Counted from the stretch's first letter, positions 1-10,934 are shown. The stretch is DNA of 10,934 nucleotides from a virus (IMGVR_UViG_2531839179_000025:1-10934), one strand, 5' to 3'. Numbers and translations: made by a program. Notes: generated by a model from the letters alone, not told the origin.

Positions 1-1032
1 ATGCCGATCATAGCACCAATTTCCCGTGACGAACGACGCCTGATGCAGAAAGCCATCCATAAAACACACGATAAAAATTATGCCCGCAGACTGACTGCCA
101 TGCTGATGCTGCACCGGGGCGACCGTGTCAGCGACGTTGCCAGAACGCTCTGCTGCGCCCGTTCCTCTGTTGGACGCTGGATTAACTGGTTCACGCAGTC
201 GGGTGTTGAGGGACTGAAATCATTACCTGCCGGGCGTGCCCGTCGCTGGCCGTTTGAGCATATCTGCACACTGTTACGTGAGCTGGTAAAACATTCTCCC
301 GGCGACTTTGGCTACCAGCGTTCACGCTGGAGTACAGAACTGCTGGCAATAAAAATCAATGAGATAACCGGTTGCCAGTTAAATGCCGGAACCGTTCGCC
401 GCTGGTTGCCGTCTGCGGGGATTGTGTGGCGAAGGGCTGCGCCAACTCTGCGTATCCGTGACCCGCATAAAGATGAAAAGATGGCAGCAATCCATAAAGC
501 ACTGGACGAATGCAGCGCAGAGCATCCGGTCTTTTATGAAGATGAAGTGGATATCCATCTTCATCCCAAAATCGGTGCGGACTGGCAACTGCGCGGACAG
601 CAAAAACGGGTGGTCACGCCGGGACAGAATGAAAAATATTATCTGGCCGGAGCGCTGCACAGCGGGACAGGTAAAGTCAGCTATGTGGGCGGCAACAGCA
701 AAAGTTCGGCGCTGTTCATCAGCCTGCTGAAGCGGCTTAAAGCGACATACCGTCGGGCGAAAACCATCACGCTGATCGTGGACAACTACATTATCCACAA
801 AAGCCGGGAAACACAGAGCTGGCTGAAGGAGAACCCGAAGTTCAGGGTCATTTATCAGCCGGTTTACTCGCCATGGGTGAATCATGTTGAACGGCTATGG
901 CAGGCACTTCACGACACAATAACGCGTAATCATCAGTGCCGCTCAATGTGGCAACTGTTGAAAAAAGTTCGCCATTTTATGGAAACCGTCAGCCCATTCC
1001 CCGGAGGCAAACATGGACTGGCAAAAGTGTAG
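1..1032 (+). CDS. IS630 transposase (DDE, Tc1/mariner superfamily)
   Basis: 343-aa ORF starting MPIIAPISRDERRLMQKAIHK and ending PFPGGKHGLAKV, recognised from memory as the IS630 transposase. The window begins exactly at its ATG, so upstream signals are not visible. Confidence 0.9.
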   Translation: MPIIAPISRDERRLMQKAIHKTHDKNYARRLTAMLMLHRGDRVSDVARTLCCARSSVGRWINWFTQSGVEGLKSLPAGRARRWPFEHICTLLRELVKHSPGDFGYQRSRWSTELLAIKINEITGCQLNAGTVRRWLPSAGIVWRRAAPTLRIRDPHKDEKMAAIHKALDECSAEHPVFYEDEVDIHLHPKIGADWQLRGQQKRVVTPGQNEKYYLAGALHSGTGKVSYVGGNSKSSALFISLLKRLKATYRRAKTITLIVDNYIIHKSRETQSWLKENPKFRVIYQPVYSPWVNHVERLWQALHDTITRNHQCRSMWQLLKKVRHFMETVSPFPGGKHGLAKV

Positions 1033-1052
1033 CGGTATTAAGCGCAGCTATT
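1..1052 (+). mobile_element. IS630-family insertion sequence, partial (left end lies outside the window; right end approximate)
   Basis: Contains the complete 343-aa transposase ORF that I recognise as IS630 Tc1/mariner-like transposase. The element must end within about 25 bp after the stop at 1030-1032. The exact right inverted repeat and TA target duplication could not be resolved by eye. Confidence 0.8.
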
Positions 1053-1380
1053 TAGCATCAAAATCAGAACCGAGATTAACGGTCACGTAGCCACGCTTCA
1101 TGGCGTCGCCCGGGAAGTTCTTGCCACTCCCCACCTGGCGAACCATGTCCGGCTGCGAAGTGGTCGGATAAGGGCGCACGTAGATCCCCTTCACCTTGTC
1201 TGCGGTATCACCATCTGCCAGCGGCACGAAAAAACCGTCATCATCGTATTTACCAGCCAGGCCATAGGCAGCAAAGGCGTTATCGGATTTAAGGACCACC
1301 GGTTCGACGGTTAAGTCCTGCGGGCGAGAAACAGCCCCGGCAATGCCAACAGGCATCCGGTACAGAAATACATTATTCAT
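1048..1380 (-). CDS. Phage head structural protein, probably an N-terminal fragment truncated by the IS630 insertion
   Basis: 110-aa ORF with RBS AAGGG 8-12 nt upstream of the ATG at 1380 and a start 3 nt after the stop of the upstream gene (translational coupling in the head operon). Its stop codon lies at the IS630 junction, and the position after a scaffold-like gene is where a major capsid gene (usually over 300 aa) is expected. Confidence 0.45.
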   Translation of the reverse strand: MNNVFLYRMPVGIAGAVSRPQDLTVEPVVLKSDNAFAAYGLAGKYDDDGFFVPLADGDTADKVKGIYVRPYPTTSQPDMVRQVGSGKNFPGDAMKRGYVTVNLGSDFDAK

Positions 1381-6871: not shown

Positions 6872-6924
6872 AAGTCGTATCACGGTTAAATAGCAAAGAA
6901 AAATTCACAGAAGGAAAGACATTG

Positions 6925-7434
6925 ATGGAGTGGATAAATGCTTTGATGAACTATTTTGTACTTCATCCATATCGCCTATGGGGGCTTCTTTTTATAATAG
7001 CGTTCACAAAATCCACTTTACTCATTTCGGCGATATTGCCACCAGCATCAATTATGATGGCCACTGTAATTACAGTCAGCAAGACGACTCTTTCACCATG
7101 GGAAGCTGGAATCACGGTCATGAGTGGCGCATGGTGCGGTACTATCGTTAATTACCATCTTGGTATAATAATTGGGCATATCCCTCAACTTGCATGTATA
7201 ATATCGAGCCGTTCCAATACAATAGAACGGGTTCGCCTTCAGTTGCAAAATAACTCTGTGTCAATACTTTTCACTTCGCGCTTTATCGCCGTGCTGCGTT
7301 ATATTGCTCCTTTGGTGGCAGGAATGTTGCAACTTCATCCAGTGAAAGTGTATACAGTGAGTCTGATTTCAGCTGCTAGCTGGTCAGCACTTTATGTTGG
7401 TAGTTTTAGCTTCGTGTTGCCTTTTTTTAGCTAA
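6925..7434 (+). CDS. DedA-family-like (TVP38/SNARE-associated-like) inner membrane protein; moron on the opposite strand
   Basis: 169-aa hydrophobic ORF with RBS AAGGAAAG 6 nt upstream of the ATG at 6925 (the track ORF begins at a TTG at 6922). The C-terminal stretch SRFIAVLRYIAPLVAGMLQLHPVKVYTVSLISAASW resembles the DedA signature (RF..G.R....AG...M....F......A..W). The gene is visibly AT-richer than its flanks and opposes all neighbouring phage genes. Confidence 0.55.
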   Translation: MEWINALMNYFVLHPYRLWGLLFIIAFTKSTLLISAILPPASIMMATVITVSKTTLSPWEAGITVMSGAWCGTIVNYHLGIIIGHIPQLACIISSRSNTIERVRLQLQNNSVSILFTSRFIAVLRYIAPLVAGMLQLHPVKVYTVSLISAASWSALYVGSFSFVLPFFS

Positions 7435-8734: not shown

Positions 8735-8768
8735 AAGAAAAAAGGCCATCAGCAAAACTCTGATGGCC
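8735..8768 (-). terminator. Rho-independent terminator on the minus strand, about 35 nt upstream of the holin start
   Basis: Perfect 9-bp stem GGCCATCAG / CTGATGGCC (8744-8752 and 8760-8768) with a 7-nt loop, followed on the minus strand by TTTTTTCTTTCC. Confidence 0.6.
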
Positions 8769-9381
8769 TGAATCACCTTTACCAATATTGTATGAAAAAA
8801 CACGCACGTCTAATTGACAATAATTTTCATTTCCATTAAAAAAGATCGCGTAGCATTCTTAATTCATGAGGAACTTTACCCGCCAGCAATCTGAGTAGCG
8901 AAAGCTGTTCATCCCCAATGTTTTTGCTGGCGGGTCCTTTTTTCTACGGTCCTCCTCCCCGGAGGGGGCATTTCATTATTTTTCTAATCATTACTGGTGA
9001 GAAGGCGGAAGAAAAAGCCAGTTCTTCGCCCCTAAATAACAGCATGATTCCAGTCCATGCAAAATCTGATTTCCAGCTCACACATACCGAGCACTGTACA
9101 AAAAACCGCCAGCCAAGGCAGTTAAGAGTGTGTTCCCGGGGTTTGCTTAGAATATTTTGTAAGTTGTCCGAAGAGATATTTACAACACCAGAATGATGCA
9201 TTATCAGTCCCCTGCCAGAGGTTCACTACGTAACCTGACCGACAATGCACCATTCTGGTGCTGAAAAAAGAGCACTGGAACTGCAACAAAACAACATCAC
9301 AGAACAGGAGATGGTAAGGAGTCAGACATTCCCACACAATATTGTGTCAGTGCAAATAACAACCTTCGTCTCAAATCTCGC

Positions 9382-9456
<75 letters not shown>

Positions 9457-9459
9457 ATA

Positions 9460-9535
<76 letters not shown>

Positions 9536-9537
9536 GC

Positions 9538-9614
9538 TGGCCCACCACCGAGGACTCGAACCTCGCACCGTCAACTTAGAAGGTTGATGCTCTATCCGGA
9601 TGAGCTAGTGGTGG
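9538..9614 (-). tRNA. tRNA-Arg (anticodon UCU)
   Basis: 77-nt cloverleaf: acceptor CCACCAC/GTGGTGG, anticodon stem TCAAC/GTTGA with loop CTTCTAA, T-loop TTCGAGT, encoded CCA. Confidence 0.8.
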
Positions 9615-9615
9615 T

Positions 9616-9692
9616 TGGTGGCCCTTGCTGGACTTGAACCAGCGACCTGGCGATTATGAGTCGCTCGCTCTGACCAACTGAGCTAAAGGGCC
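9616..9692 (-). tRNA. tRNA with CAU anticodon, Ile2-like (ileX/ileZ-type, reads AUA after lysidine modification; Met not excluded)
   Basis: 77-nt cloverleaf: acceptor GGCCCTT/AAGGGCC, anticodon arm GCGACTCATAATCGC and T-arm GGTCGCTGGTTCAAGTCCAGC nearly identical to E. coli tRNA-Ile2 as I recall it; encoded CCA. Confidence 0.8.
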
Positions 9693-9730: not shown

Positions 9731-9779
9731 ACTCATCTGACCACCAGCACGTTTAACGTCCTGTGCCGTTTTTCAGGTA

Positions 9780-9802
9780 TAAAAAAACCCGCATAAAGCG
9801 GG
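9780..9802 (-). terminator. Rho-independent terminator (tR'-like) between the late promoter and the tRNA array
   Basis: GC stem CCCGC / GCGGG (9788-9792 and 9798-9802) with loop ATAAA, followed on the minus strand by 8 T residues (9780-9787). Confidence 0.5.
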
Positions 9803-9863
9803 CTCTTTCAAATGTCCATGTCTGCTATTCGCCTCGCGGTACAGCTTTGCGAAGCGTACAAGA

Positions 9864-9892
9864 ATTGAAGCAGTTTATGGCTAAAATTGCAA
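9864..9892 (-). promoter_or_regulatory. Candidate late promoter (pR'-like) with extended -10
   Basis: On the minus strand: TTGCAA (-35, 9887-9892), 17-nt spacer, TGcTTCAAT (extended -10, 9864-9872). It begins 5 bp after the stop of the upstream gene and lies about 65-80 nt upstream of the terminator, as in lambdoid pR'-tR' units. Confidence 0.35.
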
Positions 9893-9899
9893 GAACTTT

Positions 9900-10457
9900 T
9901 TAAAGCTGCATCAGCCTTTCCACCAGTTTATCTCTGCGAACAACAAACCAACCATTGGCTCTCGCCAGTTCCAGCCATGACTCAAGGGAAATAACAATAT
10001 CATCATCCCGCAACTGAATTGTGGAAACAGTGACACCGCCTTGCTGATAACAGAGAACTCGCGTGTCGTAACTTTTCTGGCATGAAACTGGCGTTGACGG
10101 CTCCTTTTGACTGAAATAGCAGTCTTCCAGTTTTTCGAACACATCCCACGCCTGATCGGTTTCGAGCATTTTTGCGTGGCGGGCTGCGCCGCGTTCTGTC
10201 CAGAGAATGAGGGAGCGGTTTTTGGGAGAGATGGGATTTTGTGAGTAGTTTAAAGCTACCCGCAATTCTTTAAGGTCATTACCAACAACTTTGAAAAAGT
10301 GTTTCCCTTCAACGAAGCGTACTTTGTTCTCATGATGATTCTGGCGAATACGCACCGGCTCAGTGCCGTAAAGCTGCGCCAAAAGTTCGGTGGTAATAAC
10401 AGGAATCTGGTTATAGGTAACAGGGGAAAGGTTTTTGACAGAAATCTGAACAGTCAT
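9900..10457 (-). CDS. ORF6N-domain (KilA-N-related) DNA-binding phage protein, antirepressor-like; sits in the position usually held by the Q antiterminator
   Basis: 185-aa ORF with RBS GAGG 5 nt upstream of the ATG at 10457. The N-terminal region PVITTELLAQLYGTEPVRIRQNHHENKVRFVEGKHFFKVVGNDLKEL and the downstream WTERGAARHAKML match the ORF6N pattern (LA.LYGV....L...V.RN..RF...F.F.L...E...L ... FTE.G.AML) as I recall it. Confidence 0.6.
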   Translation of the reverse strand: MTVQISVKNLSPVTYNQIPVITTELLAQLYGTEPVRIRQNHHENKVRFVEGKHFFKVVGNDLKELRVALNYSQNPISPKNRSLILWTERGAARHAKMLETDQAWDVFEKLEDCYFSQKEPSTPVSCQKSYDTRVLCYQQGGVTVSTIQLRDDDIVISLESWLELARANGWFVVRRDKLVERLMQL

Positions 10458-10617
10458 AACGACCTCGCGTTTCGATGGTTTTTAACTCACCACCTGCGAC
10501 GCCAATCGCTGGGTGGTGAACTGTGCAGGGTTGGCGTAACCGGTCGAAACATCCGGCGAGTCTCTCAACTCCCCCACACAGCCCACCATAAATCGCGAAT
10601 GTGACTGTGCTTAGCGC

Positions 10618-10640
10618 ATAAAAAAACCGCCAGCGCGGTT
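10618..10640 (-). terminator. Putative rho-independent terminator on the minus strand, between the IS3-family element and the ORF6N gene
   Basis: Stem AACCGC / GCGGTT (10625-10630 and 10635-10640) with loop CAGC, followed on the minus strand by a run of T (10620-10626). The stem is short. Confidence 0.4.
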
Positions 10641-10651
10641 ATGCACCGTTT

Positions 10652-10934
10652 TGAGGTAGCCTGAGTTTAACGGACACTCCTTCCTGAAATAGAATGGCAT
10701 CAGAAGGAGCTAATAATGAGCAGAAAAACCCAACGTTACTCTAAAGAGTTCAAAGCCGAAGCTGTCAGAACGGTTCTTGAAAATCAACTTTCGATCAGTG
10801 AAGGCGCTTCCCGATTATCCCTTCCTGAAGGCACTTTAGGACAATGGGTTACCGCCGCCAGAAAAGGACTCGGTACTCCTGGTTCCCGCACGGTGGCTGA
10901 ACTGGAATCTGAAATTCTGCAACTGCGTAAGGCG
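10652..10934 (+). mobile_element. IS3-family insertion sequence (IS600-like), left end and 5' part only
   Basis: A terminal TGAGGTAGCC... begins at 10652 (IS3-family ends start with TG), followed 63 nt later by an OrfA-type ORF. The element continues beyond the window. Confidence 0.7.
10715..10934 (+). CDS. IS3-family transposase OrfA (helix-turn-helix N-terminal ORF), 3'-partial
   Basis: Strong RBS AAGGAG 7 nt upstream of the ATG at 10715. The translation MSRKTQRYSKEFKAEAVRTVLENQLSISEGASRLSLPEGTLGQWV... ELESEILQLRKA is recognised as an IS600-like OrfA with HTH and the start of a leucine zipper; it runs off the window end. Confidence 0.85.

What the first reader, a model, noticed from the sequence alone, without database searches (positions are those of the whole stretch)
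9900..10457. ORF6N-domain DNA-binding protein occupies the Q-antiterminator position
In lambdoid late regions the gene directly upstream of pR' is Q. Here that gene ends 5 bp before the candidate late promoter but looks like an ORF6N / KilA-N-type DNA-binding protein, usually annotated as antirepressor-like. It has no paired-cysteine zinc motif and no resemblance I can see to the lambda, 21 or 82 Q families. Either the real Q was lost, perhaps with the IS3-family insertion upstream, or this protein is a non-canonical late regulator. The gene has its own upstream terminator and leader, so it appears to be an independent transcription unit.
Basis: inference. Interest (0 to 1): 0.6.

Follow-up and report, generated by a model that had tools for sequence, protein, structure and literature searches.

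The report
Prophage antirepressor cassette, not Q substitute
The gene is a relative of the Salmonella Gifsy-1 antirepressor AnrP with part of its small-RNA control region, an optional cassette that sits between the phage's real Q antiterminator and the late promoter and that an IS600 insertion has here cut off from its own promoter, so it is an ordinary, already described kind of element.

Summary
The ORF at 9900-10457 (minus strand, 185 aa) is real and carries an ORF6N domain (Pfam E 2e-20). It matches no Q family. It is 52% identical over its full length to Gifsy-1 AnrP (STM2616), the antirepressor-like protein of the characterised antQ-isrK-orf45-anrP-isrJ locus. Its "leader" is a C4-type antisense RNA (Rfam RF01695, 68.7 bits). 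Its "upstream terminator" is the terminator of the sRNA IsrK.

Intact E. coli relatives read Q-like gene (DUF1133) - isrK/C4 - ORF6N gene - promoter/terminator - tRNAs - lysis. Of 80 DUF1133 loci, 49 lack the cassette, and there the same promoter-leader-terminator unit follows the Q stop codon directly. The cassette is therefore an optional insert between Q and pR'. Gifsy-type loci with a phage-82-like Q show the same pattern, with isrJ as the pR' transcript.

In this window IS600 sits inside isrK (3-bp duplication AAA, seen in a genome with the identical junction). That removes the isrK promoter and the activating 5' half of IsrK. In that genome the Q-like gene lies beyond the IS and is itself split by another IS.

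The "non-canonical late regulator" option is not.

The parts
10652..10934 (+). Left end of IS600 (IS3 family). The terminal repeat starts TGAGGTAGCC at 10652 and orfA starts at 10717. The element runs off the window.
   Evidence: 99.6% identical to copies annotated 'IS3-like element IS600 family transposase'. The junction is read from the sequence. In L008 the same element is flanked by a 3-bp AAA duplication.
10618..10651 (-). 3' remnant of the sRNA gene isrK: about the last 32 nt, including its intrinsic terminator (hairpin 10640-10625, T run 10624-10618). The isrK promoter and the first 46 nt, which carry the a1/b1 pairing sites, are missing from the window.
   Evidence: Truncated Rfam isrK match (model positions 36-77, 22.2 bits, E 0.022, below the gathering score because it is cut). 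Terminator scan. Alignment to uninterrupted isrK in L001, L002, L004 and VT2-Sakai. Position of the IS600 insertion after IsrK nt 46.
10509..10593 (-). C4-type antisense RNA element (equivalent to STnc1160 / the orf45 region of Gifsy-1). It carries the ACGCCAA motif that pairs with UUGGCGU of IsrK.
   Evidence: Rfam RF01695, 68.7 bits against a gathering score of 45, E 4e-13, full model. Three-site covariation of the pairing motif across 38 loci.
10482..10589 (-). Small upstream ORF of 35 codons in the position of Gifsy-1 orf45. It overlaps the C4 element, and its stop lies 24 nt before the ORF6N start codon.
   Evidence: ORF search in the leader. The peptide is not conserved among relatives beyond its first residues while the RNA is, so it may matter only as a translated leader (inference).
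9900..10457 (-). AnrP-like antirepressor gene of 185 aa: N-terminal ORF6N domain (residues 12-97) plus a narrowly distributed C-terminal domain of about 70 aa. Shine-Dalgarno GAGG at 10466-10463.
   Evidence: Pfam. 52% identity over the full length to Gifsy-1 STM2616/AnrP, E 7e-61. phrog_2379 anti-repressor, E 9.6e-92. The C-terminal domain has only 11 hits in 1.84 billion representatives.
9779..9892 (-). Late promoter unit pR'-leader-tR'. It comprises -35 TTGCAA 9892-9887; -10 TTCAAT 9869-9864; the conserved early transcribed region TACGCTTCGCAAAGCTGTACCGCGAGGCGA from 9858; and the intrinsic terminator 9805-9779.
   Evidence: The unit directly follows the Q-like gene in 49 cassette-free loci and follows the ORF6N gene in 30 cassette-bearing loci. 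The promoter and leader are invariant while at least four different terminator hairpins occur. It is positionally equivalent to isrJ of Gifsy-1.
9382..9692 (-). Four phage tRNA genes downstream of tR': CAT (Met by ARAGORN, annotated Ile in RefSeq relatives), Arg-TCT, Thr-TGT and Gly-TCC.
   Evidence: ARAGORN, Rfam tRNA, RefSeq annotation of L001 and L002.
8743..8769 (-). Second intrinsic terminator, just upstream of the holin gene (8702-8487).
   Evidence: Terminator scan: 10-bp stem with 6 GC pairs, followed by TTTTTTCTTTC.

Best explanation
The ORF encodes an AnrP-type antirepressor-like protein (ORF6N N-terminal domain plus a lineage-specific C-terminal domain). It belongs to a self-contained regulatory cassette related to the P1/P7 immI system and characterised in Salmonella prophage Gifsy-1 as isrK-orf45-anrP.

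In an intact copy the proposed sequence of events is as follows. A constitutive promoter overlapping the Q stop codon makes the 77-nt sRNA IsrK, which mostly stops at its own terminator. Read-through transcripts continue through a C4-type RNA structure, a short leader ORF and the antirepressor gene, and end at tR'. These long transcripts are translationally silent. They become translatable when free IsrK pairs (UUGGCGU with ACGCCAA) with the C4 region and opens the leader ORF's ribosome site, and the antirepressor is then translated by coupling. The antirepressor then relieves prophage repression, early transcription reaches Q, and Q loads on RNA polymerase at pR' immediately downstream of the cassette and carries it through tR', the tRNAs and the second terminator into the lysis and head genes.

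The cassette is an optional insert placed exactly between Q and pR'. That is why, once Q is removed, the ORF6N gene appears to occupy the Q position. In this window IS600 has inserted after nt 46 of isrK. The gene has therefore lost both its promoter and its activating RNA and is most likely silent, in a prophage that is also hit by IS630.

Shown here: homology, RNA family matches, synteny, the insertion point and the covariation. Taken from the Gifsy-1 work: the regulatory logic and the inducing activity of AnrP. Inferred: that this protein binds the cognate repressor, that the 9892-9779 unit is Q-dependent, and that the gene is now silent.
For: Protein. Pfam finds ORF6N only. The protein is 52% identical over its full length to Gifsy-1 AnrP, E 7e-61, and matches phrog_2379 anti-repressor over its full length.

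RNA. C4 RF01695 scores 68.7 bits in the leader, and a truncated isrK match abuts the IS. Gifsy-1 has the same order: isrK, c4-a1b1, C4, anrP, isrJ, tRNA. The pairing motif covaries at three sites with no mixed combinations, 31 loci of one type and 7 of the other. It coincides with the G28/G31-C162/C159 compensatory mutants in PMC4825925 Table 1D.

Synteny. L001, L002 and L004 read DUF1367-YbcO-DUF1133-isrK/C4-ORF6N-tRNAs-holin. Of 80 DUF1133 loci, 49 are cassette-free with the same promoter unit directly after Q, and 30 have the cassette followed by that unit. In 80 Gifsy-type Q loci, 42 or more are cassette-free with isrJ directly after Q.

DUF1133 as a Q-like protein. PF06530 E 7e-6 at 26.4 bits against a cut-off of 26; best PDB hit Q21 6P18, E 0.05, collinear; phrog_753 'anti-termination protein Q-like', E 5e-79; the HHpred assignment in PMC8136144.

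IS. The window is identical to a contig end (L011). L008 has the same junction, a 3-bp AAA duplication, PisrK plus the 5' part of isrK, and a split DUF1133 gene beyond the IS.

Function. In Gifsy-1, AnrP expression raises antQ-operon mRNA and induces the prophage, and AnrP alone is not toxic.
Against: - No direct evidence that this protein, or even Gifsy-1 AnrP, binds a repressor; 'antirepressor' is a prediction plus a phenotype.
- The C-terminal half is only weakly similar to AnrP, has no Pfam family, and could not be modelled (pLDDT 49.8).
- The small leader ORF ends 24 nt before the start codon rather than overlapping it as in Gifsy-1, so translational coupling may work differently.
- The proposed -10 (TTCAAT) is weak and was not picked up by the consensus scan.
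- Q-dependence of this promoter unit has not been tested for DUF1133 proteins.
- The source contig ends inside IS600, so what lies beyond the IS in this particular genome is unknown.
Confidence: 0.8

Rival explanations
1. The ORF6N protein is a non-canonical late regulator. It would bind DNA at or near the adjacent late promoter and replace or assist Q in reading through the 9805-9779 and 8769-8743 terminators.
For: The gene ends 7 nt before the -35 of the late promoter. The cassette has landed at exactly this spot in two unrelated Q families. The C-terminal domain type tracks the Q/pR' type with no cross-hits, while isrK, C4 and the N-terminal part cross-hybridise between the two sets. ORF6N belongs to the KilA-N-like DNA-binding domains (UniRef name).
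Against: - Most sampled loci of both Q types lack the cassette and keep Q directly followed by pR'.
- The same RNA control region plus ORF6N domain sits in the nin region of VT2-Sakai and many Stx phages, about 2 kb upstream of Q and pR'.
- No Q-family similarity at E up to 1.
- In Gifsy-1 the toxicity and antitermination phenotype needs AntQ, and AnrP alone is harmless and acts by raising antQ-operon transcription.
- The linkage of the C-terminal domain with pR' is explained by physical adjacency.
Confidence: 0.05
2. The protein is a DNA-binding moron-type factor with another role, for example superinfection exclusion or control of host or other-prophage genes, and is not an antirepressor of its own prophage.
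For: ORF6N/KilA-N-like domains are generic nucleic-acid-binding modules. The cassette behaves like a mobile module found at two genomic positions. Some genomes carry several copies: the query had up to 6 places per genome, and L008 has a second ORF6N gene. The C-terminal domain has no known function.
Against: The closest characterised homologue induces its prophage when expressed. The control by a C4/IsrK-type RNA is the same logic that P1/P7 use for their antirepressor (established knowledge of immI). All PHROG families matched by the N-terminal part are annotated anti-repressor, though this is annotation, not experiment.
Confidence: 0.1
3. The ORF is simply a decaying remnant with no present function in this genome. 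Whatever its ancestral role, it is not expressed.
For: IS600 removed its promoter and activator RNA. No sigma-70-like promoter was found on the minus strand between 10457 and 10934. The prophage is further disrupted by IS630. In related genomes Q is split or missing.
Against: The reading frame is intact and identical in many assemblies (40 collection blocks). This is compatible with the main explanation rather than opposed to it, and read-through from within IS600 cannot be excluded.
Confidence: 0.05

Closest known systems
Salmonella Gifsy-1 isrK-orf45-anrP-isrJ locus downstream of antQ (Hershko-Shalev et al. 2016, PMC4825925)
   Same: - Same gene order: Q, isrK, C4-type RNA with a small ORF, antirepressor-like ORF6N protein of 185-187 aa, a short terminated transcript, then tRNA and lysis genes.
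- Proteins 52% identical over their full length.
- C4 and isrK Rfam families in the same places.
- The same UUGGCGU/ACGCCAA pairing nucleotides.
   Different: - The upstream Q in E. coli/Shigella relatives is a DUF1133-type protein, not a phage-82-type Q.
- The promoter-leader after the gene is unrelated in sequence to isrJ (no Rfam isrJ hit).
- The C-terminal domain is a different subtype.
- The leader ORF is 35 rather than 45 codons and does not overlap the start codon.
- This copy is cut by IS600 and lacks PisrK and the 5' part of isrK.
Phage P1/P7 immI operon (c4 antisense RNA - icd - ant)
   Same: A C4-family RNA (Rfam RF01695) is processed from the leader of an antirepressor operon. Repeated target sites lie upstream (a1/b1, RF03163, within isrK in relatives) and downstream of it. 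Natural specificity variants exist, as between P1 and P7 (immI biology from established knowledge).
   Different: No icd homologue was identified. The antirepressor here is an ORF6N protein rather than the P1 Ant type. In the Gifsy-1 version the upstream RNA acts as an activator of translation rather than C4 acting only as a repressor.
Stx-phage 'ant/antA' genes in the nin region (e.g. VT2-Sakai Ant, phage 2851 AntA)
   Same: About 89% DNA identity over the isrK terminator, the C4 element and the first 115 codons or so. The ORF6N N-terminal domain is the same.
   Different: Those genes carry a P22_AR_C C-terminal domain, are 244 aa long, and lie between ninE and roi, about 2 kb upstream of Q, rather than between Q and pR'.
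Lambdoid Q antiterminators (lambda PF06323, 21/933W PF06530, 82 PF03589, DUF1133 PF06576)
   Same: Only the position immediately upstream of pR' in this IS-disrupted copy.
   Different: No sequence similarity to any of them. In intact relatives the Q-like gene is a separate gene upstream.

Membership tests
AnrP-type antirepressor cassette (Gifsy-1 isrK-orf45-anrP) | Full-length protein homology to AnrP (STM2616/SL2578) | tested here: met
   BLASTP 52% identity, 185 of 187 residues aligned, E 7e-61. Both proteins have ORF6N as their only Pfam domain.
AnrP-type antirepressor cassette (Gifsy-1 isrK-orf45-anrP) | C4-type structured RNA (STnc1160 region) in the leader | tested here: met
   RF01695, 68.7 bits against a gathering score of 45, at 10593-10509. 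The Gifsy-1 leader scores 69.0 bits.
AnrP-type antirepressor cassette (Gifsy-1 isrK-orf45-anrP) | Complete isrK sRNA gene with its promoter upstream | tested here: not met
   Only the last 32 nt or so remain (22.2 bits, truncated), because IS600 is inserted after IsrK nt 46. The feature is present and complete in intact relatives (75.6 bits). The absence is therefore secondary.
AnrP-type antirepressor cassette (Gifsy-1 isrK-orf45-anrP) | Short leader ORF translationally coupled to the antirepressor gene | tested here: inconclusive
   A 35-codon ORF starts at the equivalent AUG, but it stops 24 nt before the start codon instead of overlapping it, and its peptide is not conserved.
AnrP-type antirepressor cassette (Gifsy-1 isrK-orf45-anrP) | Location between a Q gene and the short terminated late transcript | tested here: met
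   Met in relatives L001, L002, L004 and 30 IMG/VR loci. In the window the Q side is replaced by IS600.
AnrP-type antirepressor cassette (Gifsy-1 isrK-orf45-anrP) | Expression derepresses or induces the prophage | not testable with these tools
   Known only for Gifsy-1 AnrP.
Q antiterminators (PF06323, PF06530, PF03589, PF06576) | Sequence match to a Q family profile | tested here: not met
   Pfam scan to E = 1 returns ORF6N only. PHROGs returns no Q-like family.
Q antiterminators (PF06323, PF06530, PF03589, PF06576) | Always present immediately upstream of pR' in related phages | tested here: not met
   The cassette is absent from 49 of 80 DUF1133 loci and from 42 or more of 80 Gifsy-type loci. 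In those loci the Q gene itself abuts pR'.
P1/P7 immI (c4-icd-ant) | C4 RNA with complementary target sites on both sides | tested here: met
   RF01695 in the window. RF03163 (a1/b1) in relatives. The UUGGCGU repeat downstream of C4 is kept in the window, and three-site covariation is seen.
P1/P7 immI (c4-icd-ant) | icd gene and a P1-type Ant protein | not tested
   No direct comparison with P1 Icd or Ant was run. The protein's only Pfam domain is ORF6N.
ORF6N domain proteins (PF10543) | Profile match above the curated threshold | tested here: met
   73.3 bits against 27.8, residues 12-97 covering profile positions 3-86 of 86.

The most novel reading that the evidence does not exclude
The cassette has inserted recurrently and to the base between Q and pR' in two unrelated Q families, and the C-terminal domain subtype links strictly with the pR'/Q type. 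This could mean that the protein, besides or instead of acting as an antirepressor, acts directly at the adjacent late promoter, for example by modulating Q loading or pR' activity. That would give a feed-forward link between derepression and late transcription.
Probability: 0.05. Interest if true: 0.6.

Novelty: new member of a known kind. Interest (0 to 1): 0.22.

Why it matters
This mainly corrects an annotation. A gene that looks like a Q replacement is an IS-orphaned copy of a known antirepressor cassette, and the real Q in this prophage lineage is the under-annotated DUF1133 family.

Two by-products may help people who work on lambdoid prophages and Shiga-toxin phages. First, the promoter-leader-terminator unit that goes with DUF1133-type Q proteins is now delimited. 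Second, the Salmonella sRNA IsrJ appears to be the short pR'-tR' transcript of Gifsy-type phages, comparable to lambda 6S RNA and StxS.

Tried and rejected
- Searching for the exact IS600/isrK junction found nothing in the species-representative genomes, in metagenome contigs or in complete E. coli genomes. The junction was recovered only through the exact-protein look-up.
- The source contig (L011) ends inside IS600, so the far side of the IS in that assembly could not be read.
- AlphaFold2 on a shallow 24-sequence alignment gave pLDDT 49.8 with the C-terminal half unmodelled. No fold search was run because the matches would be meaningless.
- A profile search of the PDB with the protein alignment gave only chance-level hits.
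- A whole-molecule RNA duplex calculation between reconstructed IsrK and the leader was too permissive to be informative. It was replaced by motif covariation.
- I considered whether PisrK could itself be pR' and IsrK the 6S-like RNA. I rejected this because the same isrK/C4 unit sits in the nin region of Stx phages far from Q, and because cassette-free loci have a different unit directly after Q.
- I considered TACGCT (9858-9853) as the true -10. No acceptable -35 lies at 17-18 nt, so it is more likely an early-transcribed -10-like element. This is speculative.

Full report
**What is in the window**

The phage late region runs on the minus strand. Reading in the direction of transcription:
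- the left end of an IS3-family element, from 10652 to the window end;
- an intrinsic terminator (hairpin 10640-10625 plus a T run);
- a structured leader;
- the 185-aa ORF, 10457-9900;
- a promoter-like element and an intrinsic terminator (9892-9779);
- four tRNA genes (9692-9382);
- a second terminator (8769-8743);
- holin, lysozyme and Rz/spanin genes, then terminase, portal and head genes;
- an IS630 copy at 1-1062.

The window is base-for-base identical to the end of an NCBI contig, GCA_000211935.2 AFFZ01000069.1, and that contig stops inside the IS.

**Checking the observation**

Pfam finds ORF6N (PF10543, E 2e-20, residues 12-97) and nothing else up to E = 1, so no Q family matches. PHROGs gives a full-length match to phrog_2379 'anti-repressor' (E 9.6e-92). 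Nearly all its other matches are anti-repressor families and none is Q-like. There is no CxxC pair in the sequence. The gene ends 7 nt before a -35-like TTGCAA.

**What the gene and its leader are**

An Rfam scan identifies the leader as a C4 antisense RNA (RF01695, 68.7 bits, gathering score 45) at 10593-10509. The segment that abuts the IS is the truncated 3' end of the sRNA gene isrK.

The Gifsy-1 prophage of Salmonella has the same order: a Q gene, isrK (with the c4-a1b1 target sites), C4, a 187-aa ORF6N protein (STM2616), isrJ, and a tRNA. The window protein is 52% identical to STM2616 over its whole length (E 7e-61).

This Gifsy-1 locus has been dissected experimentally (Hershko-Shalev et al. 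2016, PMC4825925):
- The isrK promoter drives the short IsrK RNA.
- By read-through of the IsrK terminator it also drives a transcript of about 910 nt, isrK-orf45-anrP-isrJ, which is translationally inactive.
- IsrK in trans opens the orf45 ribosome site, and anrP is translated by coupling.
- AnrP expression raises antQ-operon mRNA and induces the prophage.
- AnrP alone is not toxic, whereas AntQ is.

A 35-codon ORF starts at the equivalent AUG (10589) but ends 24 nt before the ORF6N start. Its peptide is not conserved among relatives, whereas the RNA is.

**Support for the RNA mechanism from natural variation**

Across 38 loci the heptamer in IsrK, its complement in the C4 element, and a second copy downstream of C4 occur in two forms. 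The forms are UUGGCGU/ACGCCAA/UUGGCGU (31 loci) and UUGGAAC/GUUCCAA/UUGGAAC (7 loci), and no mixed combinations occur. These are the same nucleotides as the G28/G31 and C162/C159 compensatory mutants of the Gifsy-1 study. The window keeps the C4 copy and the downstream copy but has lost the IsrK copy.

**Where Q is**

Intact E. coli relatives (L001, L002, L004) read DUF1367 - YbcO - DUF1133 - isrK/C4 - ORF6N gene - tRNAs - holin. DUF1133 is Q-like on four grounds:
- a weak Pfam hit to Phage_antitermQ PF06530 (E 7e-6, 26.4 bits, cut-off 26);
- its best PDB match is Q of phage 21 (6P18, E 0.05, three collinear segments);
- a match to phrog_753 'anti-termination protein Q-like' (E 5e-79);
- an HHpred assignment as a Q antiterminator in a survey of Stx phages (PMC8136144).

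I fetched 80 IMG/VR loci that encode DUF1133 proteins and mapped the parts. Of these, 49 have no isrK, C4 or ORF6N gene. In them the sequence homologous to window 9899-9805 begins at the Q stop codon, with the -35 TTGATT overlapping the stop, a 17-nt spacer and the -10 TTCAAT. Another 30 have the cassette followed by the same unit.

Forty distinct variants of the unit share the spacer and -10 (ATAAAYYGCTTCAAT) and the early transcribed region (TAnGCTTCGCAAAGCTGTAYCGCGAGGCGA). They carry at least four different terminator hairpins at the same distance. This is the expected anatomy of a pR'-qut-tR' unit tied to this Q type.

The ORF6N cassette is therefore an optional insert between Q and pR'. 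The same holds for the Gifsy-type, phage-82-like Q. In 42 or more of 80 loci the cassette is absent and isrJ starts just after the Q stop codon, with the -35 TTGCAA inside the end of Q.

**What the IS did**

A genome with the identical ORF6N protein and the identical junction (L008) shows a simple IS600 insertion. On the far side it has ...GGATATCGAAA followed by the IS600 right end, and on the near side the IS600 left end followed by AAACGGTGCAT.... This is a 3-bp AAA duplication relative to the uninterrupted ATATCGAAACGGTGCAT of L002. The insertion follows nt 46 of IsrK.

Beyond the IS, L008 retains PisrK, the 5' part of isrK, and the 3' end of the DUF1133 gene, which is itself split by another IS. 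Three other genomes have rearranged this side and lack DUF1133.

In the window the antirepressor gene has therefore lost its promoter and its activating RNA. No sigma-70-like promoter was found on the minus strand upstream of it.

**The protein's C-terminal half**

Residues 115-185 are nearly invariant among close relatives. They have no Pfam family and find only 11 proteins at E up to 1e-3 among 1.84 billion representatives. Those that carry a recognisable N-terminal domain have ORF6N or, in one case, Rha.

In the two locus sets, isrK, C4 and the N-terminal coding part cross-hybridise, but the C-terminal part does not. The C-terminal subtype therefore travels with the Q/pR' type. Physical adjacency explains this most simply, and a functional link cannot be excluded. 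The AlphaFold2 model was too poor to use (pLDDT 49.8).

**Comparison with the known, and verdict**

The element works like, and is a member of, the Gifsy-1 AnrP cassette, which is itself a relative of the P1/P7 immI c4-ant system. It is not a Q protein. It differs from the Gifsy-1 prototype in four ways: the Q family it follows (DUF1133), its C-terminal subtype, its leader-ORF geometry, and its decapitation by IS600.

The second (a non-canonical late regulator) is not supported but is not strictly excluded; I give it about 5%. The finding is ordinary: a new, damaged member of a known kind.

Noticed in passing
L005 (Gifsy-1) 33406-33520; L129-L173: The Salmonella sRNA gene isrJ lies directly after the stop codon of phage-82-like Q genes in 42 or more of 80 cassette-free loci, with its -35 TTGCAA inside the end of Q. 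IsrJ therefore looks like the constitutive short pR'-tR' transcript of Gifsy-type phages, analogous to lambda 6S RNA and StxS. Neither PMC4825925 nor the StxS paper (PMC7547250) describes it that way, judging only by term counts in my searches.
   Followed up: partly
window 10540-10529 and 10506-10496; L001-L004, L014-L043: There are two natural specificity classes of the IsrK/C4 pairing: UUGGCGU/ACGCCAA in 31 loci and UUGGAAC/GUUCCAA in 7 loci. The three sites always match within a locus, reminiscent of the P1 versus P7 c4 immunity difference.
   Followed up: yes
window 9903-10115 (protein residues 115-185): The C-terminal domain of about 70 aa is extremely narrowly distributed: 11 hits at E up to 1e-3 in 1.84 billion representatives. 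In one cluster it is joined to a Rha N-terminal domain instead of ORF6N. Its fold and function are unknown.
   Followed up: partly
window 9616-9692: The first phage tRNA has anticodon CAT. ARAGORN calls it Met, but the identical gene in RefSeq relatives is annotated tRNA-Ile, presumably lysidine-modified. The set (CAT, Arg-TCT, Thr-TGT, Gly-TCC) sits between tR' and the lysis genes, as in Stx phages.
   Followed up: no
window 8770-9381: A stretch of about 600 nt between the tRNAs and the holin gene has no convincing gene on the late strand, several terminator-like hairpins and no Rfam hit. In L001 the same interval is only about 300 nt.
   Followed up: no
window 6922-7434 (+ strand): A 170-aa membrane protein gene (VTT/DedA-like domain by the precomputed Pfam hit in L011) is encoded opposite to the late operon, between Rz and the small terminase gene. 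Related Shigella prophages carry a TrkH-family gene at the same place, so this is a moron slot.
   Followed up: no
window 1-1062: An IS630 copy (99.5-99.7% identical to annotated IS630) is inserted after the head-decoration/cement gene (1048-1380, minus strand). It is a second IS hit in this prophage.
   Followed up: partly
L008 3202-3882: The same Shigella-type genome carries a second ORF6N gene (226 aa), with its own C4 element and complete a1 site, upstream of hok and the DUF1367-YbcO-DUF1133 genes. One prophage can therefore hold two such cassettes.
   Followed up: no
L001 5327-5881 and relatives: DUF1133 proteins are still named 'DUF1133 family protein' in RefSeq, although their position, PHROG, weak PF06530 and Q21 matches and a linked pR'-tR' unit all point to a fourth, Q21-related group of Q antiterminators.
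   Followed up: partly
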